Positions 6,394 to 14,123 of a stretch of DNA of 64,000 bases are shown piece by piece. The stretch comes from Candidatus Gygaella obscura (GTDB taxonomy: Bacteria; Omnitrophota; Gorgyraeia; Gygaellales; Gygaellaceae). Made by a program: the position numbers and the translations under genes. The stretch spans positions 4,653-68,652 of the forward strand of contig JAVCCR010000003.1 in NCBI GenBank assembly GCA_030765485.1. Direction: 5' to 3'. The notes below the pieces were generated by a model. That model worked only from the letters and a program-made list of their open reading frames with translations. It did no database searches and was not told the DNA's origin. Numbering within the stretch: position 1 is the stretch's first letter; every line of letters begins with the position of its first letter.

Positions 6394-6490
6394 TTGATAT
6401 TCTTTGATAGACGTATTAGTTGAACAAGCGTTTATAAAAAGATATACTTAGTAATAGATTTTCCAGAAATTTATCCTACAAGGAGGGGTT

Positions 6491-7417
6491 ATGGACAATT
6501 CTTTAATTAAGGCGTTGTTGGATAATATTGAAAAAGTCATTGTCGGCAAGACCGAAAAGATAAAGCTGTTGATAACCGGCTTACTTACTAACAGTCATGT
6601 TTTAATAGAAGATGTCCCTGGTCTTGGTAAAACTATGCTTGCTTTATCTTTATCAAAATCAGTCTCGGGAAAATTCAAAAGGATTCAGTTTACGCCCGAT
6701 TTATTGCCGTCAGATGTCACAGGAGGCTATGTATATAATCCCAAGACAGGAGAGTTTGATTTTAGAGAAGGTCCGATATTTGCTAATATTGTTTTAGCTG
6801 ATGAAATCAACAGAACTACCCCTAGAACCCAGTCGGCACTTTTAGAGTGTATGCAGGAGTATAAGGTTACAATTGACGGCAATACCTTTACTCTTTCGAA
6901 CCCTTTTATGGTTATAGCTACCCAAAATCCCATTGAATACCAGGGAACATATCCTTTGCCTGAGGCGCAGGTGGATAGATTCATGATGAAGATTAATATG
7001 GGGTATCCTACCGAGGAAGAAGAAGTAAAAGTCATCTCAGAGCAAAAACAGGTTCATCCTGTGGAAACGCTTGATGCGGTCATGGGTTTGGAGCATATCG
7101 CTAAGCTTCAGGAAGAAGTAAGAAAGGTACAAGTAATGCCAAATATCTTAAATTATATCGTTAAGATAGTTGCATTAACTAGAAAAAGAGACGATATCAA
7201 AGTAGGTGCAAGCCCTAGGGCTTCGATTTCTCTTATGAAAGCAAGTTGTGCCTGGGCTTTTATTGAAGGCAGAGACTACGTTATTCCGGATGATATCAAT
7301 AAGCTGGCTATATGGACATTAAAGCATAGGATTAGCTTGGAGCCAAAGTCTCTTATAGTAGGCAAAACCGCGGAGATAGTAATCTCGGAGATCCTTAAAG
7401 AAATACCCATTCCTTAG
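6491..7417 (+). CDS. MoxR-family AAA+ ATPase
   Basis: 308 aa with Walker A GLGKT, Walker B LADEINR and sensor regions; preceded by an AAGGAGG SD. Typical size and motifs for MoxR. Confidence 0.85.
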   Translation: MDNSLIKALLDNIEKVIVGKTEKIKLLITGLLTNSHVLIEDVPGLGKTMLALSLSKSVSGKFKRIQFTPDLLPSDVTGGYVYNPKTGEFDFREGPIFANIVLADEINRTTPRTQSALLECMQEYKVTIDGNTFTLSNPFMVIATQNPIEYQGTYPLPEAQVDRFMMKINMGYPTEEEEVKVISEQKQVHPVETLDAVMGLEHIAKLQEEVRKVQVMPNILNYIVKIVALTRKRDDIKVGASPRASISLMKASCAWAFIEGRDYVIPDDINKLAIWTLKHRISLEPKSLIVGKTAEIVISEILKEIPIP

Positions 7418-7421
7418 GTCC

Positions 7422-8666
7422 ATGCTTAAGACATTCATTAAGAAATGGGTATTTATTTTTGTTCTGCTTGTATTTAGCTTTATCGGTTCTTTAAAGAGTC
7501 ATATAGTTTTTTTTAATATTTTCTTCTGGATCCTTTTATCAATAATATCATTGGAATTGCTCTGCGTAGTGGTGGTTTTTTTTGCTGCTAGATTTAGTTT
7601 TAAAAGAATCCTTCCGTATAAGAGCGTAGAGGACGAAGAAATCACCATAAAAACAGAGGTTAAAAACCGCTCGTTTTTGCCTTGTTTTAACCTTGTTTTG
7701 GAAGATTTCGTCTACTGCGCGGCTCCTTCAAGGCAAAAGCATACTATTATTTTCGAATATATTGGCCCAAAAAAGAAAGTCGATTTAGTTTATCGGTGTT
7801 TTTGTTATAAAAGAGGTAGATATAATATTGGTCCTTTAAAGATATTCTTTTTTGGTCCGTTTGGTTTGGCTTTTTTCAAAAGAAAATATGATGTATTCTC
7901 AGAGATTTACGTATATCCGAAAACTTTCTCTATTCAGAAAATAGGACCTTTGACTAAAGGGATTGCTCCTTGGTTTGGAATTGAAACTAGTCGTGTAAGT
8001 GGAGACGACGACGAGTTTTTTGGTGTCCGGGAGTATAAAAGCGGAGATCCAATTAAGCGAATTCATTGGGCAAGCACAGCAAAAAAAAATAAGCTTATAG
8101 TTAAGGAATTTCAGAGACAGAGTTTTTATCGGGCCAGTATAATTTTTAATCTAGAAAAGGATACAAATTTTGGCGCGGGTAGGGAAAAAGTAGCTGAATA
8201 CATGATAAAACTTGCCGCTTCCATTGCTAAATATTTTACTATGAATGGCGTTTCGTTTGAGATCATCTCGCATATAGGGGAAATGGTACATATTCCTTTC
8301 AATAAGGGAGAAAGCCATCTTGAAGAAGTTATGAAGTTTTTTACAGTGGCTGAAGCGCAGAGTGCGGTAAGTCTACGTGAAATATTTGAAGAATTCTCCA
8401 GGCGTCTGCCTAGCGAATCCAGCATGATTGCCATAATGCAGGACACAGATTGGGAATGTTTTCCTGCGATGATGTCTTTACGTGTAAGAAATATCTCGCT
8501 TTTACCGATAGTTCTCGTTTCTTCGAGCTTTATGGATAAAAAAGATTCCTATAAAAGCGCGCACGAAATAAAATTAAACGTATCCAAGGCTATTGATTTT
8601 GTTCCGATTTTTGTTTCTTGCGGGGATAATCTCGAAGAGCTGTTTTTGTCTTCTAATATAAAATGA
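7422..8666 (+). CDS. DUF58-domain protein (vWA-like partner of MoxR) with N-terminal TM helices
   Basis: Carries the DUF58 signature GV(R)EY.SGDP.KRIHWAST.K...L.VKEF. Lies 4 nt downstream of moxR, the canonical MoxR-DUF58 pairing. Confidence 0.75.
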   Translation: MLKTFIKKWVFIFVLLVFSFIGSLKSHIVFFNIFFWILLSIISLELLCVVVVFFAARFSFKRILPYKSVEDEEITIKTEVKNRSFLPCFNLVLEDFVYCAAPSRQKHTIIFEYIGPKKKVDLVYRCFCYKRGRYNIGPLKIFFFGPFGLAFFKRKYDVFSEIYVYPKTFSIQKIGPLTKGIAPWFGIETSRVSGDDDEFFGVREYKSGDPIKRIHWASTAKKNKLIVKEFQRQSFYRASIIFNLEKDTNFGAGREKVAEYMIKLAASIAKYFTMNGVSFEIISHIGEMVHIPFNKGESHLEEVMKFFTVAEAQSAVSLREIFEEFSRRLPSESSMIAIMQDTDWECFPAMMSLRVRNISLLPIVLVSSSFMDKKDSYKSAHEIKLNVSKAIDFVPIFVSCGDNLEELFLSSNIK

Positions 8667-11494
8667 CGAAAAATAAGAAAATCATTAAGATAGAGTCTTT
8701 GCTTACCTGTTTTCTTCTTTGTGTTAATATTCTTCTTCTCTGGCAGGTACTTTCTCCAAATTCATTCTACTTTTTATGTATAATTATCGCAGGTTTTTTC
8801 TTTAGTAGCTATCTCCAACAGCGTGCGGGTAAGGTTTTGAATATTATAGTGAATCTATCGGTACTTGCTGTTTTTGTATTCCTTGTCATCTCCGTAATGA
8901 ACTCCTCATTTATATATAAAGATGTTGTTGAAATTTTTGTTAAAAAGATATTCTTGATTTTGATTATTTTTTCATTTGCTTCATCATTGGTAGGGTATCT
9001 ATCCTATATACAAGTCTTGAGCGCCTGCGTATTAATTGCTCACGCACTTTTTATTAGCAGCTATACACTTATGGTATTTTCTTTTGTTATTGTCTATTTG
9101 CTGATTTGGGTTTTGATTATGAGAGTAAAACTATATGGATATTTTTGCGATTCCGAGGAAATCAAGGGTAAAAAATATTATTCTTTGTTGATGTCGGTAT
9201 TATTTCTTGCGATCGCCCTTGCTTTAGCATGGGTATTATTAATTAGGTTTCCTATAGGAAAATTCGATAATTTTGCTTTATTGCTTCATCCTAATGAAGC
9301 AGTTAAGGCTGAGTTTCTTGCAACAGAAAGCGAAAAGGAATTTTCACAATTAGAAGAAGAGTTAGTGGAGAAAGTAGTGAAGTTTATCTCCGAATCAAAC
9401 TATGGAACTATCGGGGATAAAGAGTTAAGCTTGGCTTTATTTAATAAGCTTACCAATCAATCTGTCACTTCTTTAGAAGTCCTCCAGGCAGAAGACGGGC
9501 TTATAGATATGCTAAAAAGAATTGGCCCCGGCATTGAAAAGGGGAAGGATAATTTAGAATTGATTCTAAAGCAATATCTGAAATCAAAATTAAATTTAAA
9601 TCTGAGTAGCCATTCGAAAAGCATGATGAACAGATTCAATATGAACCCGCTTGACGTATTAGATAAGTTACTTAACATGAATCGTGTTAACAGGCTTAAT
9701 TCCAGTCGTTCGTTGGGAGAGCTTCTAAAAAACAATGAGAAACTGATGAATGAAATCGAGAGTAAACAGATCAATTTACAGGAGGCGAGTAAAATAGAAG
9801 ATTCGATTGATGACTTTAGGGATAGTAAGCTCGAAGAGCTTTATAGAAAGAAAAAAGAAGAATTAGAGACTGCTCTTGATGAATTAAAGGGTGAAAAATT
9901 CAAATTAGAATCTTTAGTCCCTCAGCAGAAAAGCCTAATAGAAGAAAAGATGCCGATAAAGCCAGATGGTAAGTTGGAAGACTTAGAGTTCGCCATTAAA
10001 AGTTTTCAAGATCTGCTGGATAGGGTAGATCAGGCGCTTAAGTTGGATGATTTTAAGGGTATTGAAAAGGTAATTAAAGAAAAAGAAGAAAGGAATACAG
10101 CTGCGCTCAAGCAGTACTTAGAAAATTTTATTGAGCTTTCCGATATCAAGCTATCTATTGTCAACGAACACATAAAAGCAGTAATAGATGAAAAATTACA
10201 TAATTCTGATATGCCAGAGTATTTTCAAAATGAAATCAACCATTCTTTAGGGAAGCTGATTTTAGTTTCTGAGGGTAAGCAGTTTAAACGCCAAACGCTG
10301 GAAACAAGTGAAAAACTCGAAAACAATAAGACCGATGCCGAAAAAGAAATAAAACAGTTGATAGTAGGTAAAGCATTTATTTTATCTAAAAGCAGTAGAA
10401 GAGAGCTTAAAAACAGTTTCAAGGAAAACCTCTCCGGGCAGGTGTCTAATCAATCTGTTAATGATTTAGTAAGATCTGTTGATCAGCTTGAGAGTATCAA
10501 TAACTTGAATATATTGTCTCAGCGCATAGAACAGCTTAATGATTATTTAAGTCAGCTAAGCAGCAAAGGACAATTATTGAAAAAAACCGAAGAAGAACAA
10601 AAGGATATTTTGGACAATCTTTATGATGTGTTATCAGCAAGAATTATTTCACAAAAGGATATTGTAGATACAGGGATAAGAGATGTTGCTAAAAAACAAG
10701 ATTCATTCGAACGACTATTAGAAGAAGACACGATGGAAAGTAGCATTAGGGATTTTCTGAAAGATATTAAAATGGAAATAGATACTGCAGATAAATTTTT
10801 AGAGATAGAAATGCTATTAGAACGGATTGATAAACTTAGTGATATTACTAAGAATAAACTCAAGGAAGAGCATTTAAATACAATACAGCAAAATCTTATA
10901 CAGAGAACGCAGATACAGAAAGCTTTTATAAGACAGAATATTAAGACTCAATTGCAGGAAAAGCTGGATTTATTGAGAAAGTTAAATCCCGAGAGCGCTA
11001 AGATAGTAGGTAAATTAAAAGATAAGTTAGAAGAAAGCAGGACAGATGAACAGTTGAATAAGATACTTAGCGACATTAATTATCAAATAGAGCAAATCTC
11101 TGAATACGGACAGAATTTGCATTTGTTAGAAGCTGAAGATGAAGATTTATTAGAAAATCAAGTTGATGGATTTAGTGATGGGTTTGGGGATAGGGAATTA
11201 GCAGTTGTGCCTTCGAGTCTTGTTATGTCTATTGATTCTAGTGTGCAACCAAAAGCTTTTTTTATTTCCGGTAATATGTTTGTGACTGATGTTACGGAAA
11301 AATGTCAATGGATTTCGGCTAGTCCCGATATAGCATGGATAGATGAAAAAGGTATTCTTCACGCGATTAAGAAAGGTTCAGTTCGAATAAGAGCAAGGTT
11401 TAGAAGCGGTGTCAGTCCGGTAATAAATGTATTAGTTGTTGATAAAATGTTGTCGTCTGTAGAGTACTCTATAGAAAGAGAAATTGCTAAATAG
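8663..11494 (+). CDS. Large membrane protein: N-terminal ~6-7 TM (TgpA/DUF3488-like), ~600-aa coiled coil, C-terminal Big_2 Ig-like domain
   Basis: 943 aa. Six to seven hydrophobic helices in the first ~200 aa are followed by a long heptad-rich E/K/L/N/Q region and a C-terminal ~80 aa Big_2-like segment (…GSVRIRARF.SGVSPVINVLVVD). No transglutaminase Cys motif was found. Start overlaps the DUF58 gene stop. Confidence 0.6.
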   Translation: MTKNKKIIKIESLLTCFLLCVNILLLWQVLSPNSFYFLCIIIAGFFFSSYLQQRAGKVLNIIVNLSVLAVFVFLVISVMNSSFIYKDVVEIFVKKIFLILIIFSFASSLVGYLSYIQVLSACVLIAHALFISSYTLMVFSFVIVYLLIWVLIMRVKLYGYFCDSEEIKGKKYYSLLMSVLFLAIALALAWVLLIRFPIGKFDNFALLLHPNEAVKAEFLATESEKEFSQLEEELVEKVVKFISESNYGTIGDKELSLALFNKLTNQSVTSLEVLQAEDGLIDMLKRIGPGIEKGKDNLELILKQYLKSKLNLNLSSHSKSMMNRFNMNPLDVLDKLLNMNRVNRLNSSRSLGELLKNNEKLMNEIESKQINLQEASKIEDSIDDFRDSKLEELYRKKKEELETALDELKGEKFKLESLVPQQKSLIEEKMPIKPDGKLEDLEFAIKSFQDLLDRVDQALKLDDFKGIEKVIKEKEERNTAALKQYLENFIELSDIKLSIVNEHIKAVIDEKLHNSDMPEYFQNEINHSLGKLILVSEGKQFKRQTLETSEKLENNKTDAEKEIKQLIVGKAFILSKSSRRELKNSFKENLSGQVSNQSVNDLVRSVDQLESINNLNILSQRIEQLNDYLSQLSSKGQLLKKTEEEQKDILDNLYDVLSARIISQKDIVDTGIRDVAKKQDSFERLLEEDTMESSIRDFLKDIKMEIDTADKFLEIEMLLERIDKLSDITKNKLKEEHLNTIQQNLIQRTQIQKAFIRQNIKTQLQEKLDLLRKLNPESAKIVGKLKDKLEESRTDEQLNKILSDINYQIEQISEYGQNLHLLEAEDEDLLENQVDGFSDGFGDRELAVVPSSLVMSIDSSVQPKAFFISGNMFVTDVTEKCQWISASPDIAWIDEKGILHAIKKGSVRIRARFRSGVSPVINVLVVDKMLSSVEYSIEREIAK

Positions 11495-11500
11495 TCCTAA

Positions 11501-13660
11501 ATGAGAAGAGCTAAATTTCTAATAGTTTCGGTTTTGTTATTTCTAATTTGTCTTTGCGCTTCTGCACAGTCGGATTATGAGATAGAAAATACTTCTTCAG
11601 GGAAGGTGGTTGTTGGTTTGACGCAGGCTCAAGCCTTGGATAAGTTTGGAAATCCGGATTCCGTTAAGGGGAATGTTTGGTATTACGGGCTGGATAATCC
11701 TTTTTATGTTTATTTTGAGAATCCGGTTTATCTTTATCCGGAAAAAATTGTTGTTGCTCTTGGTTCACCTATAGAGCTAAAGGTTTTGTTGAATAGGTTT
11801 GATGAAGGGGTAATTGATGTTACCCAGGATTGCGAATTTATTGTAAGCGATACGGAAGCACTGATTATTGATGCAAAAAACGTAATATTTCCTCAAAGGG
11901 CAGGGAATTACCAGATATTTGCAAAGCATAAGAAGCTAATAACAAATATATGTACAGTTAAAGTAGAGGCAACCCGGGAAGTACAAAAAAATATAGCTCT
12001 TCAACAGATAGTGATTTTTCCCTATAATCCACAGATTGTCGAAAATCAAAGAGTTCAATTTTCCGCATTCGGTGTTTTTCAGAATAACGATCAAAAGAAA
12101 GTATATATAGAAGATATATCCAGTCGGGCAAGTTTTATGTTGAAAGATAAAGAAAAAATTATAAATCTAAAAAACAGGTTCGTTACATTCCCTACGGAAG
12201 GCAAATATGAACTCTTCTGTAGCTACCGGGATACTGTAAGCGATCCTAATGAGATTATAGTTTATGGCGATGAAGAATCTCCAGGCGCAAGAGATGACCT
12301 AAAACAAATTATTGCTTTTCCTGAATATGTTGTTGTCAGACCAGATTACTTATTGGAATTCAAGGCATTTGCGAGCTATATGGATAATAATTTTGACGAT
12401 GTTACCTATAGAACAGATTGGTTTGTGAAAGATAAGGATATTGTTTCTATCATAGATAAAGGTAAATTCCTGACCAAGAGACCCGGCATTACAGAAATTA
12501 TCGCGACTAAGAATCAGAAAGAAAGTCTACCATTGAAGATTGTTGTTACTCGTAAGGATGAAGTGACAATGCTGCCAGTCAGTAAAAAGGAGACCTCGGC
12601 AAGTCTAGAAGAATTGTTGCAGGAAACTAGAAGAGATATAGAGGGTTTTAAAGAAGATATTTCTTTGGAAGGAAGAAAGCTGCTTGCTGTAAAATTATCT
12701 AAAGATTATCTTGAGTTGGGCTTAGGACAGGAATTTGAGGTTAAGGCAACAGCAGTTTATGATGATAACAAGGAAGAAGACGTGACTTTTCTCGGGAAAT
12801 GGTCTAGCTCTCAAGAGAAAATTGCCTCTATAACAAAGGGAAGAATAAAAGCTTTAAAAACAGGAAGCACATTGGTTAATTGTGAATATCAAAACGTAAG
12901 AAGTTCGTCATTGGCAGTAAATGTTGATAAGGAAAAGCTGATTTCTATATCTTTGAAACCTCAGGTTATCGAGCTTGAGATGACTGAAACTATACCGCTA
13001 ACTGCAGAAGGTTTTTACAGTGATGATTCCAAACGTGATATCACCGCACTTGTAGATTGGCATGTAGAGAACAAAGGGCTAGTTACTGTTTTTGGAGAAG
13101 GCAAACTTTTACCCAGAGCTTCAGGTAACACAACTTTATTCGCGCAATATCTAGATGTTAAAAGTTTATCTATTTCGATATCAATAAGATATGGTTTGAA
13201 GTGGATTATTTGGCAGATTGCCAAACTTATAATGGTTTTAATTGGACTTAGTCTGATTATATTTATAATAATGTATATTTCAAGAGAAGCACAGAAAGCA
13301 AAATTATTAATTCTTATGGATAGAGACCCCAGACAATTTGTAATAAAGCTGTATGAAAACATAAGTCGGTTGCTTCAGCTTGTGGGTTCACGTCCTCTAA
13401 AAGGAGATGCCTATTTGGCATTTGCTGTGCAAGTCCAGAATAAATATCAGATAAAAGATAATTGTTTTTTGAGCATAGTGGAGATTTTTGAGAAGGCGAA
13501 GTTTAGTAGCTACGATATCTCAAAAGAGCGGGCGGAAACTGTTTTAAATGCCTACAATTTATTTTTGTTTTCTTTGTTAGCAAGGCTTAATAAACTAGAA
13601 AAAGCAATTCTGAATGCTAAGGCTGTTTATTTTAGGACTATTCTTCAGCTAAGAAAATAG
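11501..13660 (+). CDS. Secreted/membrane-anchored protein with ~5 Big_2 Ig-like repeats, one TM helix and a C-terminal DUF4129-like cytoplasmic domain
   Basis: 719 aa. Has a signal peptide (LFLICLCASAQS), repeated ~90-aa units with Big_2-type periodicity, a TM segment (WIIWQIAKLIMVLIGLSLIIFIIMYI) and a C-terminal domain resembling DUF4129 (…IVEIFEKAKFSSYDISKE…). Lies 6 nt after the upstream gene. Confidence 0.6.
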   Translation: MRRAKFLIVSVLLFLICLCASAQSDYEIENTSSGKVVVGLTQAQALDKFGNPDSVKGNVWYYGLDNPFYVYFENPVYLYPEKIVVALGSPIELKVLLNRFDEGVIDVTQDCEFIVSDTEALIIDAKNVIFPQRAGNYQIFAKHKKLITNICTVKVEATREVQKNIALQQIVIFPYNPQIVENQRVQFSAFGVFQNNDQKKVYIEDISSRASFMLKDKEKIINLKNRFVTFPTEGKYELFCSYRDTVSDPNEIIVYGDEESPGARDDLKQIIAFPEYVVVRPDYLLEFKAFASYMDNNFDDVTYRTDWFVKDKDIVSIIDKGKFLTKRPGITEIIATKNQKESLPLKIVVTRKDEVTMLPVSKKETSASLEELLQETRRDIEGFKEDISLEGRKLLAVKLSKDYLELGLGQEFEVKATAVYDDNKEEDVTFLGKWSSSQEKIASITKGRIKALKTGSTLVNCEYQNVRSSSLAVNVDKEKLISISLKPQVIELEMTETIPLTAEGFYSDDSKRDITALVDWHVENKGLVTVFGEGKLLPRASGNTTLFAQYLDVKSLSISISIRYGLKWIIWQIAKLIMVLIGLSLIIFIIMYISREAQKAKLLILMDRDPRQFVIKLYENISRLLQLVGSRPLKGDAYLAFAVQVQNKYQIKDNCFLSIVEIFEKAKFSSYDISKERAETVLNAYNLFLFSLLARLNKLEKAILNAKAVYFRTILQLRK

Positions 13661-13661
13661 T

Positions 13662-14123
13662 TTAATTGCCTTGCGATTTGTCGATCAAGGCGTTGATTCT
13701 TGAAATAAGCGGCCAGAATTTATCAGTCTGTCTTATGTCAATATGGTCTTTTTTCTCTCCCTTGATGACCGCATCAAGTTCTCTTAAAATCCTATCAAAA
13801 GAACCGATTAATTTATGTGTTTGTTTATACACAACCAAAAGAATCAAGGCAATTGAACCCGGGGCGAGGAATAAAAGAACAATACTTACCTGTTCTGCGA
13901 TTATAATTGGGTCTATATTAAAAGGCAGGATGAAATCTTCGCCGATTACAGAAAATACCAAAAAATAAAGACACAGGCTTACAATTAAGGTAGGCAGTAG
14001 GGCAACAAGGAAAATTAAATTTAAGATGTCTTTTTGGAACTGGTTTGCATAGAATGTTTTTCTTCTCTCTGTATTTTTAGCCATTTTTTTATTCCCCTTT
14101 TTAAAATTGTTTATAGTCATCAT
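13662..14123 (-). CDS. Small 2-TM membrane protein with HAMP-like C-terminal segment (paralog of the 33375-33764 gene)
   Basis: 153 aa with a basic N-terminus, two hydrophobic helices, then ...G.F.RI...LD..I.GEKK....IRQ.D....L...IN.LID. Shares this pattern with ORF 33375..33764. The true start may be the internal Met (MAKNTERRK). Confidence 0.45.
   Translation of the reverse strand: MMTINNFKKGNKKMAKNTERRKTFYANQFQKDILNLIFLVALLPTLIVSLCLYFLVFSVIGEDFILPFNIDPIIIAEQVSIVLLFLAPGSIALILLVVYKQTHKLIGSFDRILRELDAVIKGEKKDHIDIRQTDKFWPLISRINALIDKSQGN

What the first reader, a model, noticed from the sequence alone, without database searches (positions are those of the whole stretch)
6491..13660. MoxR-DUF58 operon whose TgpA-like third component is split and remodelled
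The canonical MoxR-DUF58-TgpA triad encodes a single protein with an N-terminal polytopic DUF3488 membrane domain, a transglutaminase core and a DUF4129 tail. Here the four genes are tightly linked (gaps of 4, -4 and 6 nt). The N-terminal polytopic domain is followed by a heptad-rich coiled coil of roughly 600 residues and a Big_2 domain, with no TGase Cys motif that I can see. A separate secreted protein carries five Big_2 repeats, a TM helix and a DUF4129-like cytoplasmic tail. This replaces an enzymatic core with long structural or adhesive modules while keeping the MoxR-DUF58 chaperone pair. It may be an envelope-spanning scaffold or adhesin whose assembly is MoxR-dependent.
Basis: partly seen in the sequence, partly recalled or inferred. 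Interest (0 to 1): 0.68.

Follow-up and report, generated by a model that had tools for sequence, protein, structure and literature searches.

The report
Split, enzyme-less TgpA-like MoxR operon
An uncultured Omnitrophota bacterium carries a conserved four-gene operon in which the usual membrane transglutaminase partner of the MoxR ATPase and DUF58 has lost its enzyme domain and is split into two membrane proteins built from helices and Ig-like repeats; this is a real, undescribed variant of a poorly understood system, and its function is unknown.

Summary
Four co-oriented genes (6491-13660; gaps 4, -4 and 6 nt) encode MoxR (AAA_3, 2e-64), DUF58, a 943-aa protein (P3) and a 719-aa protein (P4). 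P3 has seven TM helices, a conserved helical ectodomain, a variable all-alpha region and one Big_2-like domain. P4 has a signal peptide, five Big_2-like repeats, a TM helix and a cytoplasmic tail.

The tail is homologous to DUF4129 of canonical TgpA (hhalign 98.3%, E 2.6e-14), although Pfam's own model misses it. Neither protein has a transglutaminase core or a conserved Cys outside TM1. The cassette recurs in the same order in 12 distinct Omnitrophota loci with unrelated flanks.

A tail-profile search found about 60 single-chain proteins with a P3-like N-module and a P4-like tail. The three looked up sit directly after DUF58, MoxR-DUF58 where the contig extends. So P3 plus P4 is the split form of a one-protein design.

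Two corrections. The "600-residue coiled coil" is a segmented all-alpha region with only two short heptad-like stretches. Homology of the N-terminal domain to TgpA_N is suggestive, not proven.

This is a new variant of a known kind. The scaffold or adhesin function is untested.

The parts
6420..6490 (+). Likely operon start: a 97-nt intergenic gap with a sigma-70-like site (TTGAAC-17-TATACT, 6420-6448) and a strong AAGGAGG ribosome-binding site before the MoxR ATG.
   Evidence: Consensus matches only; promoter-like sites are not enriched over shuffles.
6491..7417 (+). MoxR-family AAA+ ATPase, 308 aa, with Walker A (GLGKT) and Walker B (DEINR) visible.
   Evidence: Pfam AAA_3 2.1e-64 and AAA_lid_2 2.5e-21. 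66-91% identical across Omnitrophota loci.
7422..8666 (+). DUF58 protein, 414 aa, with a hydrophobic N-terminal membrane anchor and a VWA-like domain. The signature GDDDEFxGVREYxxGDxxxxIHW is present. The position of the first MIDAS Asp is Asn (NLEKD).
   Evidence: Pfam DUF58 1e-13; alignment A14.
8663..9247 (+). P3 residues 1-195: seven-helix membrane domain, with N-terminus inside and C-terminus outside by the positive-inside rule. Possibly TgpA_N-like.
   Evidence: AF2 helices 3-30, 34-51, 56-79, 85-105, 110-127, 136-162 and 170-195. Pfam TgpA_N E 4.8e-4, below cut-off; 17 of 39 family members hit it.
9326..9895 (+). P3 residues 222-411: conserved all-helical ectodomain ('domain X') carrying the family's most conserved motif, KAExGLxxxLxxxGPGxE (G290 invariant in 60 sequences).
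   Evidence: AF2 block-mean pLDDT about 70-95 over this stretch; conservation in A3, A8 and A11. No Pfam or PDB match.
9896..11137 (+). P3 residues 412-825: poorly conserved, charged, segmented alpha-helical region that varies in length between orthologues. Heptad-like only at about 386-434 and 610-658.
11186..11455 (+). P3 residues 842-931: Big_2-like Ig domain, followed by a short terminal helix.
   Evidence: Pfam Big_2 E 0.01 here and 3.1e-4 in the L002 orthologue; hhalign 95-97.7% to the P4 repeats; beta strands in AF2.
11501..11566 (+). P4 signal peptide, residues 1-22, with predicted cleavage at ASA|QS.
   Evidence: Read from the sequence; hydrophobic N-terminus conserved in orthologues.
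11573..11716 (+). P4 residues 25-72: small conserved N-terminal domain of unknown family.
   Evidence: Conserved in A4; no Pfam hit; unrelated to the Ig repeats.
11717..13201 (+). P4 residues 73-567: five Big_2-like repeats (73-162, 160-260, 262-356, 391-481, 474-567), with a helical linker at 357-390 between repeats 3 and 4.
   Evidence: Pfam Big_2 4.9e-8, above cut-off; pairwise hhalign 95-98.8% for 9 of 10 repeat pairs; repeat-HMM boundaries.
13193..13291 (+). P4 transmembrane helix, residues about 565-597.
   Evidence: Hydropathy segments; conserved in A4 and A5.
13292..13657 (+). P4 residues 598-719: cytoplasmic DUF4129-like tail, motif PRxF..LYEN..RL...G.....L.YA......F....FE(K/E)AK(F/Y)S.
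   Evidence: hhalign 98.3%, E 2.6e-14, to the DUF4129 region of canonical TgpA; 97.4% against 14 canonical proteins. The profile search reaches Pfam-positive DUF4129 proteins.

Best explanation
This is a four-gene operon for a MoxR-DUF58 machine. Its membrane partner is a transglutaminase-less relative of TgpA that is encoded as two chains.

Shown:
- MoxR is an intact AAA+ ATPase, and DUF58 is a membrane-anchored VWA-like protein.
- P3 supplies a seven-helix membrane domain followed by a conserved helical domain, a variable helical region and one Ig-like domain.
- P4 supplies a signal peptide, five further Ig-like domains, a single TM helix and a cytoplasmic DUF4129 tail.
- In many Omnitrophota relatives these two ends sit in one polypeptide; the three looked up occupy the third-gene slot.

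Inferred:
- P3 and P4 associate through their extracytoplasmic helical and Ig parts and their TM segments. Together they rebuild the TgpA topology: polytopic anchor, periplasmic module, TM, cytoplasmic DUF4129.
- The DUF4129 tail, together with the cytoplasmic loops of P3, is the docking or target site for the DUF58 adaptor and the MoxR hexamer. This follows the pattern of other MoxR-VWA pairs, where the VWA protein bridges the ATPase to the complex it remodels.
- With no catalytic domain, the periplasmic output must be binding or structural. Candidates are a tether or ruler contacting peptidoglycan, outer membrane or surface glycan, or a ligand-binding ectodomain whose state is coupled to ATP-driven remodelling.
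For: - Domain calls and tight or overlapping junctions.
- The same gene order in 12 distinct Omnitrophota loci with unrelated flanks. MoxR and DUF58 are well conserved (66-91% and 44-80% identity), while P3 (21-24%) and P4 (28-30%) diverge fast but keep their architecture.
- The tail profile finds 204 clusters. 61 of the full-length hits join a P3-type 410-residue N-module to a P4-type tail in one chain. The three looked up follow DUF58, with MoxR upstream where the contig extends.
- The same profile reaches canonical proteins with TgpA_N, Transglut_core and DUF4129, and the match lies on their Pfam DUF4129 region.
- hhalign gives 98.3% and 97.4% for the tail. NCBI names two family members 'DUF4129 domain-containing protein'.
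- No TGase: there is no Pfam hit, no conserved Cys outside TM1, the P3 ectodomain is all-alpha, and P4 is filled by Ig repeats.
- Topology: seven helices with positive charges on alternate loops, a signal peptide on P4, and a periplasmic domain between TM5 and TM6 in P. aeruginosa TgpA (PMC3507681).
- The canonical triad was verified in Ralstonia.
- DUF4129-tailed Ig-array proteins again lie next to MoxR-DUF58 in an unrelated lineage.
Against: - No direct evidence that P3 and P4 bind each other or bind MoxR/DUF58.
- N-domain homology to TgpA_N is below Pfam's cut-off and is not recovered by hhalign against 7-14 canonical sequences.
- No structural relative in the PDB, and the AlphaFold-database libraries were unavailable.
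- The DUF58 here lacks the first MIDAS Asp, so the analogy with metal-dependent VWA adaptors may not hold.
- The full-length P3 model is of low confidence (pLDDT 50).
- The function of even canonical TgpA triads is not established.
Confidence: 0.6

Rival explanations
1. P3/P4 and their fused relatives are not derived from TgpA. They form a separate family of DUF4129-tailed membrane partners of MoxR-DUF58, and their seven-helix domain is unrelated to TgpA_N. The resemblance to TgpA would then be limited to the shared DUF4129 module and the gene neighbourhood.
For: - hhalign of the N-domain against canonical TgpA sets gives probabilities below 1%, and HMM searches are negative.
- P. aeruginosa TgpA is predicted to have five N-terminal helices, against seven here.
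- DUF4129 also combines with quite different ectodomains and no polytopic domain next to MoxR-DUF58. DUF4129 is therefore a mobile module.
Against: - TgpA_N is the only Pfam family hit repeatedly by the N-domains (17 of 39, best 6.3e-6). The checked matches are colinear with profile positions about 2-190, and no other family is hit by more than 2 members.
- The order of modules and the gene position are the same as in TgpA.
- The canonical sets available for hhalign were small and compositionally distant.
Confidence: 0.3
2. The system is a transmembrane sensor rather than a scaffold or adhesin. The Ig and helical ectodomain would bind an envelope or external ligand, and the DUF4129 tail would relay this inward to regulate MoxR-DUF58 activity on some other cytoplasmic or membrane client.
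For: - The ectodomains evolve fast and change in repeat number while the cytoplasmic parts stay conserved, as is typical of ligand-facing receptor modules.
- The Bifidobacterium PFNA cluster (kinase, FN3 protein, MoxR, DUF58, transglutaminase) has been discussed as a signal-recognition system (PMC8430577).
Against: - No recognisable signalling output domain (kinase, cyclase, HTH) lies in or next to the cassette in any locus examined.
- The direction of information flow cannot be read from sequence.
Confidence: 0.2
3. The two large genes are envelope proteins that merely lie beside MoxR-DUF58, or the split is a frameshift or assembly artefact in a single gene.
For: - One locus (L011) does show P3 broken in two, and MAG assemblies contain errors.
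Against: - The L011 break is a run of N, that is, an assembly gap.
- The split recurs in 12 distinct loci from different projects.
- P4 has its own ATG, signal peptide and N-terminal domain, and P3 ends in a conserved terminal helix.
- The flanks differ while the four genes stay together, and fused relatives sit in the same slot.
Confidence: 0.03

Closest known systems
MoxR-DUF58-TgpA triad (P. aeruginosa PA2875-PA2874-PA2873; Ralstonia moxR-hypothetical-tgpA)
   Same: - Same gene order, MoxR then DUF58 then the membrane partner.
- Same overall topology: polytopic N-terminal domain, periplasmic module, TM helix, cytoplasmic tail.
- The tail is homologous to DUF4129.
   Different: - No Transglut_core and no catalytic Cys.
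- The periplasmic module is a novel helical domain plus variable helices plus six Big_2-like domains.
- It is encoded as two polypeptides.
- Seven rather than five N-terminal helices, and N-domain homology is only sub-threshold.
Single-chain transglutaminase-less TgpA-like proteins of Omnitrophota (for example P0011 594 aa, P0017 634 aa, P0022 1222 aa; unnamed in databases)
   Same: - Homologous 410-residue N-module (360-460 bits against the family HMM) and a homologous tail.
- Same position after DUF58 in the three looked up (with MoxR where the contig extends), and same phylum.
   Different: - One polypeptide with 0-2 Ig repeats.
- The window's form is split after one Ig domain and has six Ig domains in all, plus a signal peptide and a small extra domain on the second chain.
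Ig-array-TM-DUF4129 proteins beside MoxR-DUF58 (loci L026 and L027; L027 is probably archaeal, inferred from a proteasome alpha gene)
   Same: - A secreted or bitopic protein with several Ig-like domains, one TM helix and a cytoplasmic DUF4129.
- It is encoded in the same gene cluster as MoxR and DUF58.
   Different: - Different Ig families (Big_3_5, Big_1, CarboxypepD_reg, MG2).
- Different gene order (the DUF4129 protein comes first) and extra small genes.
- No polytopic P3-like partner seen.
- DUF4129 passes Pfam's own threshold there.
Bifidobacterium PFNA cluster (pkb2-fn3-aaa_atp-duf58-tgm)
   Same: A MoxR-DUF58 pair is accompanied both by a TgpA-type membrane protein and by a separate protein built of Ig-like (FN3) domains (PMC8430577).
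   Different: - The transglutaminase is retained there.
- The FN3 protein lies upstream.
- A Ser/Thr kinase is part of that cluster.
Bat-type and other MoxR-VWA operons (Bacteroides/Leptospira/Borrelia batA-E; RavA-ViaA, CbbQ-CbbO, NorQ-NorD). Cited from general knowledge and the abstract of PMC5700661.
   Same: A MoxR AAA+ ATPase is paired with a VWA-type adaptor and membrane proteins. The general logic is an ATPase remodelling a partner complex through the adaptor.
   Different: Those systems use BatA/BatB VWA membrane proteins or soluble enzyme clients. They have no DUF4129 tail, no P3-like domain and no Ig array.

Membership tests
TgpA (DUF3488 and DUF4129 domain-containing transglutaminase) | The gene lies directly downstream of MoxR and DUF58 genes. 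| tested here: met
   Window gaps of 4, -4 and 6 nt. The same order occurs in 12 loci. The canonical arrangement was verified in Ralstonia and in P. aeruginosa.
TgpA (DUF3488 and DUF4129 domain-containing transglutaminase) | N-terminal polytopic TgpA_N / DUF3488 domain (PF11992). | tested here: inconclusive
   Pfam E 4.8e-4 (19.7 bits against a cut-off of 30) on residues 18-197, matching profile positions 2-182. 17 of 39 family N-domains hit it, best 6.3e-6, and it is the only recurrent family. hhalign against canonical sets is negative. No structural library was available.
TgpA (DUF3488 and DUF4129 domain-containing transglutaminase) | Periplasmic Transglut_core (PF01841) with a Cys-His-Asp triad. 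| tested here: not met
   No hit at E<=1 in P3 or P4. The only invariant Cys in the three-orthologue alignments is C16 in TM1 of P3, and P4 has none. P3 222-825 is all-alpha. P4 73-567 is filled by five Ig repeats. Positive control: the same scan finds Transglut_core at about 1e-30 in canonical relatives.
TgpA (DUF3488 and DUF4129 domain-containing transglutaminase) | TM helix followed by a cytoplasmic DUF4129 (PF13559). | tested here: met
   The Pfam model does not score the window protein even at E<=10. Profile-profile comparison does: 98.3%, E 2.6e-14, and 97.4%, E 1.5e-11. The tail profile also retrieves Pfam-positive DUF4129 proteins on the matching region.
TgpA (DUF3488 and DUF4129 domain-containing transglutaminase) | All modules lie in a single polypeptide. 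| tested here: not met
   There are two ORFs with a stop codon, 6 nt and a new ATG plus signal peptide between them. The split is conserved in 12 loci.
MoxR AAA+ ATPase (MRP subfamily) | AAA_3 core plus AAA_lid_2, with Walker A and B motifs. | tested here: met
   AAA_3 2.1e-64 and AAA_lid_2 2.5e-21. GLGKT and DEINR are visible in the translation.
DUF58 | PF01882 domain, with an N-terminal membrane anchor. | tested here: met
   DUF58 1e-13, above the cut-off. The signature motif and hydrophobic N-terminus are conserved in A14.
Big_2 (bacterial Ig-like, group 2) | PF02368 match; repeats homologous to each other. | tested here: met
   P4 scores 33.2 bits against a cut-off of 22.8. Single repeats are sub-threshold, but 9 of 10 P4 repeat pairs and all five pairs with the P3 C-terminal domain give hhalign 95-98.8% (R1-R4 4.6%).
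Long two-stranded coiled coil | Sustained heptad (3.5-residue) hydrophobic periodicity over hundreds of residues. | tested here: not met
   Only 4 of 80 windows reach the 99th percentile of shuffles, at 386-434 and 610-658, and there is no peak at 3.5 over 412-825 as a whole. A crude heptad scan flags only 612-645. AF2 gives many short helices (low confidence). No dedicated coiled-coil predictor was available.
Known anti-phage defence systems (PADLOC), including MoxR-vWA ternary conflict systems | A match of any of the four proteins to a defence-system model. | tested here: not met
   Only two marginal IetA hits for the ATPase (E 4e-4 and 1e-3) and none for the other three proteins.

The most novel reading that the evidence does not exclude
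In Omnitrophota, which are small cells and in part predatory or host-attached, P3 and P4 form an ATP-powered envelope device that spans or protrudes from the periplasm. A MoxR hexamer pulling on the DUF4129 tail through DUF58 would change the extension or binding state of a helical stalk tipped with six Ig domains. The device would act as a mechanically regulated tether or adhesin, for example to surface glycan, outer membrane or a host cell. More generally, the conserved client of MoxR-DUF58 would be the membrane-anchored DUF4129 module, not the transglutaminase.
Probability: 0.15. Interest if true: 0.7.

Novelty: new variant of a known kind. Interest (0 to 1): 0.45.

Why it matters
MoxR-DUF58-TgpA triads are widespread, and TgpA is reported as essential in P. 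aeruginosa, yet it is not known what the ATPase pair does to its membrane partner.

This Omnitrophota family shows that the transglutaminase can be dropped entirely while three things are kept: the membrane domain, the DUF4129 tail and the link to MoxR-DUF58. DUF4129 also recurs beside MoxR-DUF58 with unrelated ectodomains. That points to the DUF4129-bearing membrane module, rather than the enzyme, as the constant partner.

The natural series offers ready-made constructs for interaction and structure studies. It runs from a short fused form, to a fused form with two Ig domains, to a split form with six Ig domains.

The result is an architectural and evolutionary finding. It does not reveal a new mechanism.

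Tried and rejected
- **Direct Pfam detection of DUF4129.** Scanning the P4 tail from three orthologues found nothing at E<=10. A profile search and hhalign were needed instead.
- **NCBIfam.** No family for DUF58, P3 or P4.
- **Word-indexed searches.** They found only 3 P3 and 3 true P4 relatives. A third search with a 39-sequence N-domain profile returned nothing, not even family members, probably because hydrophobic words saturated the candidate list. That search was wasted.
- **hhalign and HMM searches of the N-domain.** Searches against Clostridial, proteobacterial, actinobacterial and haloarchaeal TgpA were all negative. The tail HMM also misses the high-GC canonical sequences one by one, so these negatives are weak.
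- **PDB sequence search.** Nothing with the N-module or tail profiles.
- **Full-length P3 model.** With a 3-sequence alignment it reached only pLDDT 50. Only its secondary structure was used, and no fold search was run on it.
- **Misaligned alignment.** An alignment of full-length P3 with fused relatives (A13) placed the P3 C-terminus on the DUF4129 motif, so it was not used for modelling.
- **Rejected hits and readings.** P0007 (1144 aa) proved to be an unrelated Big_2 protein. The defence-system reading was rejected. The frameshift-artefact reading was rejected.
- **Phylogeny.** An NJ tree of MoxR plus DUF58 could not resolve whether the split arose once.

Full report
**What is in the sequence**

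The region 6491-13660 holds four + strand ORFs of 308, 414, 943 and 719 aa. They are separated by 4 nt, a 4-nt ATGA overlap and 6 nt.

A 97-nt gap with a promoter-like site and a strong AAGGAGG ribosome-binding site precedes the first gene. A convergent gene abuts the last. The four genes therefore form a bounded unit.

The 943-aa protein is 100% identical to a hypothetical protein of the MAG 'Candidatus Gygaella obscura', phylum Omnitrophota. The flanking genes have no evident link to the cassette: mnmE, folE, a diacylglycerol kinase and a TPR protein upstream, and MarR, OEP and AcrB downstream.

**Domain content**

Gene 1 is a MoxR-type AAA+ ATPase (AAA_3 2.1e-64, AAA_lid_2 2.5e-21). Gene 2 is a DUF58 protein (1e-13).

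The 943-aa protein (P3) gives only a weak TgpA_N hit. The 719-aa protein (P4) gives Big_2 at 4.9e-8. Neither gives Transglut_core or DUF4129 at E<=1. NCBIfam adds nothing.

An AlphaFold2 model of P3 residues 1-412, built on 60 homologues, is confident (mean pLDDT 83.5). It shows:
- seven membrane helices (3-30, 34-51, 56-79, 85-105, 110-127, 136-162, 170-195);
- a disordered linker (203-219);
- an all-helical domain (222-411).

Lys and Arg cluster at the N-terminus and in the 2-3 and 6-7 loops. The positive-inside rule therefore puts the N-terminus in the cytoplasm and everything after residue 196 outside. This is an inference.

A full-length model on three sequences is of low confidence (pLDDT 50). 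Its secondary structure is unambiguous: helices from 222 to 825, a beta domain at 853-925 and a terminal helix.

P4 begins with a signal peptide (ASA|Q) and a small conserved domain. Five segments follow (73-162, 160-260, 262-356, 391-481, 474-567). Together with the P3 C-terminal domain, they are mutually homologous by profile-profile comparison. The value is 95-98.8% for every pair except R1-R4, which is linked through the others. Two of the segments, and the P3 domain, hit Pfam Big_2 on their own.

P4 then has a TM helix at about 565-597 and a 120-residue tail.

**The coiled-coil claim**

This is the one descriptive point that does not hold as written.
- A crude heptad score flags only residues 612-645.
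- A Fourier test for 3.5-residue hydrophobic periodicity finds 4 of 80 windows above the 99th percentile of shuffles, at 386-434 and 610-658. There is no in-phase signal over 412-825.
- AF2 breaks the region into about 25 helices of 7-54 residues.

The first 190 residues of the helical stretch (222-411) are a conserved, confidently folded domain. They carry the most conserved motif of the whole family, KAExGLxxxLxxxGPGxE, with G290 invariant in 60 sequences. The remaining roughly 415 residues are poorly conserved and vary in length between orthologues.

The region is best called a conserved helical ectodomain plus a variable, segmented alpha-helical spacer. No dedicated coiled-coil predictor was available.

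**Is the tail DUF4129?**

Pfam's model does not score the tails of three orthologues even at E<=10. I therefore searched 1.84 billion cluster representatives with a profile of the cytoplasmic tail, built from three sequences with the TM helix excluded. It found 204 clusters at E<=1e-3 and 96 at E<=1e-10.

Among the weaker hits are canonical proteins that Pfam annotates as TgpA_N, Transglut_core (about 1e-30) and DUF4129. The match falls on their DUF4129 region. For example, in P0135 the match covers 682-783 and Pfam DUF4129 covers 702-755.

Further support:
- hhalign of the P4 tail family against seven such proteins gives 98.3%, E 2.6e-14, over 102 columns.
- Against 14 canonical TgpA proteins, including Ralstonia, Cupriavidus, actinobacterial and haloarchaeal ones fetched from annotated replicons, it still gives 97.4%, E 1.5e-11.
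- NCBI's own pipeline names two family members 'DUF4129 domain-containing protein [Candidatus Omnitrophota bacterium]'.

The tail is a DUF4129 homologue.

**Is a transglutaminase hidden anywhere?**

No.
- There is no Pfam hit, while the same scan finds the core at about 1e-30 in canonical relatives.
- The only invariant Cys in the three-orthologue alignments of either family is C16, in TM1 of P3.
- The P3 ectodomain is all-alpha apart from the Ig domain.
- P4 between the signal peptide and the TM helix is filled by the small N-domain, five Ig repeats and a 34-residue linker.

**Is it really a split TgpA-like protein?**

The decisive evidence came from the same search. Of 117 full-length hits, 61 are single proteins. 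They start with the same N-terminal signature as P3 (M..KDKY..E..LTF.LL). They match an HMM of the P3 N-module over its whole 410 residues, at roughly 360-460 bits. They end in a TM helix plus a P4-type tail.

Of these 61, 35 have no Ig repeat (about 590-700 aa) and 26 have one or two Ig repeats next to the TM helix. A further 35 clusters look like P4, with a signal peptide, 3-5 Ig repeats and the tail.

Three fused proteins were looked up. Each sits directly after DUF58, and MoxR precedes it where the contig extends (L013-L017). A further split locus, L018, again has MoxR, DUF58, a 933-aa protein and a 722-aa protein. Every named member belongs to Omnitrophota.

P3 plus P4 is therefore the two-gene form of a one-protein design. 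The break lies in the extracytoplasmic part, which is exactly where the second chain needs, and has, its own signal peptide.

**Conservation**

A scan of one genome per GTDB species returned ten loci, all Omnitrophota. Adding L002 and L018, and removing one duplicate, gives 11 further distinct loci beside the window. Each carries the genes in the same order. Two are cut by contig ends before or within P4, and the flanks are unrelated.

The P3-P4 junctions are always tight, from -11 to +13 nt. MoxR is 66-91% identical to the window protein, DUF58 44-80%, P3 21-24% and P4 28-30% apart from the one close relative. The cytoplasmic machine is conserved, and the ectodomains evolve fast while keeping their architecture.

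The one apparent further split, in L011, is a run of N. An unbootstrapped NJ tree places split loci in two deep clades with a fused locus between them. Whether the split arose once is open.

**What remains uncertain: the N-domain**

TgpA_N is the top Pfam hit for the isolated N-domain of three orthologues (E 4.8e-4, 1.4e-3, 0.012). The matches are colinear with profile positions about 2-182 but below the 30-bit cut-off.

Across 39 diverse family members, 17 hit TgpA_N at E<=0.1 (best 6.3e-6). No other family is hit by more than two. Even so, hhalign and HMM searches against the canonical sequences I could assemble are negative.

There is no PDB relative, and the AlphaFold-database libraries were unavailable. 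P. aeruginosa TgpA is described with five N-terminal helices and a periplasmic domain at 180-544 (PMC3507681), whereas P3 has seven. I rate TgpA_N homology as likely but unproven.

**How it probably works**

Shown:
- an intact AAA+ ATPase;
- a membrane-anchored VWA-like DUF58, whose first MIDAS Asp is replaced by Asn here;
- a two-chain membrane module whose only cytoplasmic parts are the short loops of P3 and the DUF4129 tail of P4.

Inferred from established knowledge of MoxR-VWA pairs (RavA-ViaA, CbbQ-CbbO, NorQ-NorD): DUF58 bridges the MoxR hexamer to this module, most plausibly through DUF4129.

DUF4129 is the one element shared by three arrangements:
- canonical TgpA;
- the Omnitrophota family;
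- an unrelated set of operons, where a protein with a Big_3_5, Big_1, CarboxypepD_reg or MG2 array, a TM helix and DUF4129 lies beside MoxR-DUF58 (L026 and L027, the latter probably archaeal).

Because no catalytic domain is present, the periplasmic output should be binding or structural. I cannot distinguish a tether or ruler from an adhesin or a ligand sensor. No signalling domain is linked in any locus examined. The cassette matches no known defence system.

**Comparison with what is known, and novelty**

The closest described system is the MoxR-DUF58-TgpA triad, for which only P. aeruginosa TgpA has been studied. The Bifidobacterium PFNA cluster is a partial precedent for an Ig-like-domain protein travelling with MoxR, DUF58 and a transglutaminase.

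Full-text searches for DUF4129, DUF3488, TgpA, MoxR, Omnitrophota and Gygaella found no description of transglutaminase-less or split forms.

The locus fails two defining features of TgpA, the enzyme core and the single chain. It should not be filed as TgpA. It is a new variant of that kind of system, common within one phylum.

Interest is moderate. The main value is the suggestion that the membrane-anchored DUF4129 module, not the enzyme, is the constant partner of MoxR-DUF58. A second value is the natural series of fused and split forms available for experiment.

Noticed in passing
L012:6664-12379 (P3 gene nt 2161-2354; P4 gene nt 1175-1304, 1363-1553 and 1609-1673): In one Omnitrophota relative, a helical-repeat module of about 190 nt from the P3 gene is 83-85% identical at the DNA level to three places in the adjacent P4 gene. 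This expands the P4 helical linker between Ig repeats 3 and 4 by about 170 residues. It implies recent exchange between the two genes, and it hints that the two helical regions are equivalent or pair with each other.
   Followed up: partly
L013:2976-3962; L014:10817-16640; L015:5881-8122; L016:2255-7093: In loci with the fused (single-chain) form, the next gene is always a Glycos_transf_4 (WecA/MraY-type) glycosyltransferase. Where the contig extends, an amine oxidase and an ABC-2/Wzt-type exporter follow. This suggests a link to surface-glycan synthesis or export. The window has no such genes nearby.
   Followed up: no
L026:8001-14838; L027:2537-8361: A different operon type occurs outside Omnitrophota (L027 also encodes a proteasome alpha subunit, so it is probably archaeal). 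The order is: signal peptide, Ig-like array (Big_3_5, Big_1, CarboxypepD_reg, MG2), TM and DUF4129; then a 165-170-aa protein; then MoxR; then DUF58; then a 274-287-aa protein. Related proteins P0144 and P0145 carry weak Transglut_core hits.
   Followed up: partly
window:9500-9535 (P3 residues 279-290): The most conserved element of the whole family lies in the extracytoplasmic helical domain rather than in the membrane or cytoplasmic parts. It is the motif GLxxxLxxxGPG (G290 invariant; G279, L280 and G288 at least 90% conserved in 60 sequences) at a helix-loop-helix junction. It is a candidate functional site with no known counterpart.
   Followed up: no
window:8118-8132 (DUF58 residues 233-237): The Omnitrophota DUF58 proteins have NLEKD where the L026/L027 (probably archaeal) homologues have a D-led motif (LDARQ, IDSRD) at the start of the VWA-like domain. 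A canonical metal-binding MIDAS site may therefore be absent.
   Followed up: no
L011:8905-12289: The P3 gene appears as two ORFs (809 and 312 aa) because of a run of N in the public record. This is an assembly gap, not a further gene split.
   Followed up: yes
window:1-64000: GC skew is positive in 31 of 32 2-kb windows, and most ORFs of at least 150 aa are on the + strand. This fits a single replichore with strong gene-strand bias. GC content is 31-39%.
   Followed up: no
window:5917-6393 and 13662-14123: The small genes on either side of the cassette (158 aa upstream on the + strand, 153 aa downstream on the - strand) have no Pfam family. The upstream one has no homologue in any related locus, and the downstream one is conserved only in the closest relative (L001), so neither belongs to the system.
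   Followed up: yes
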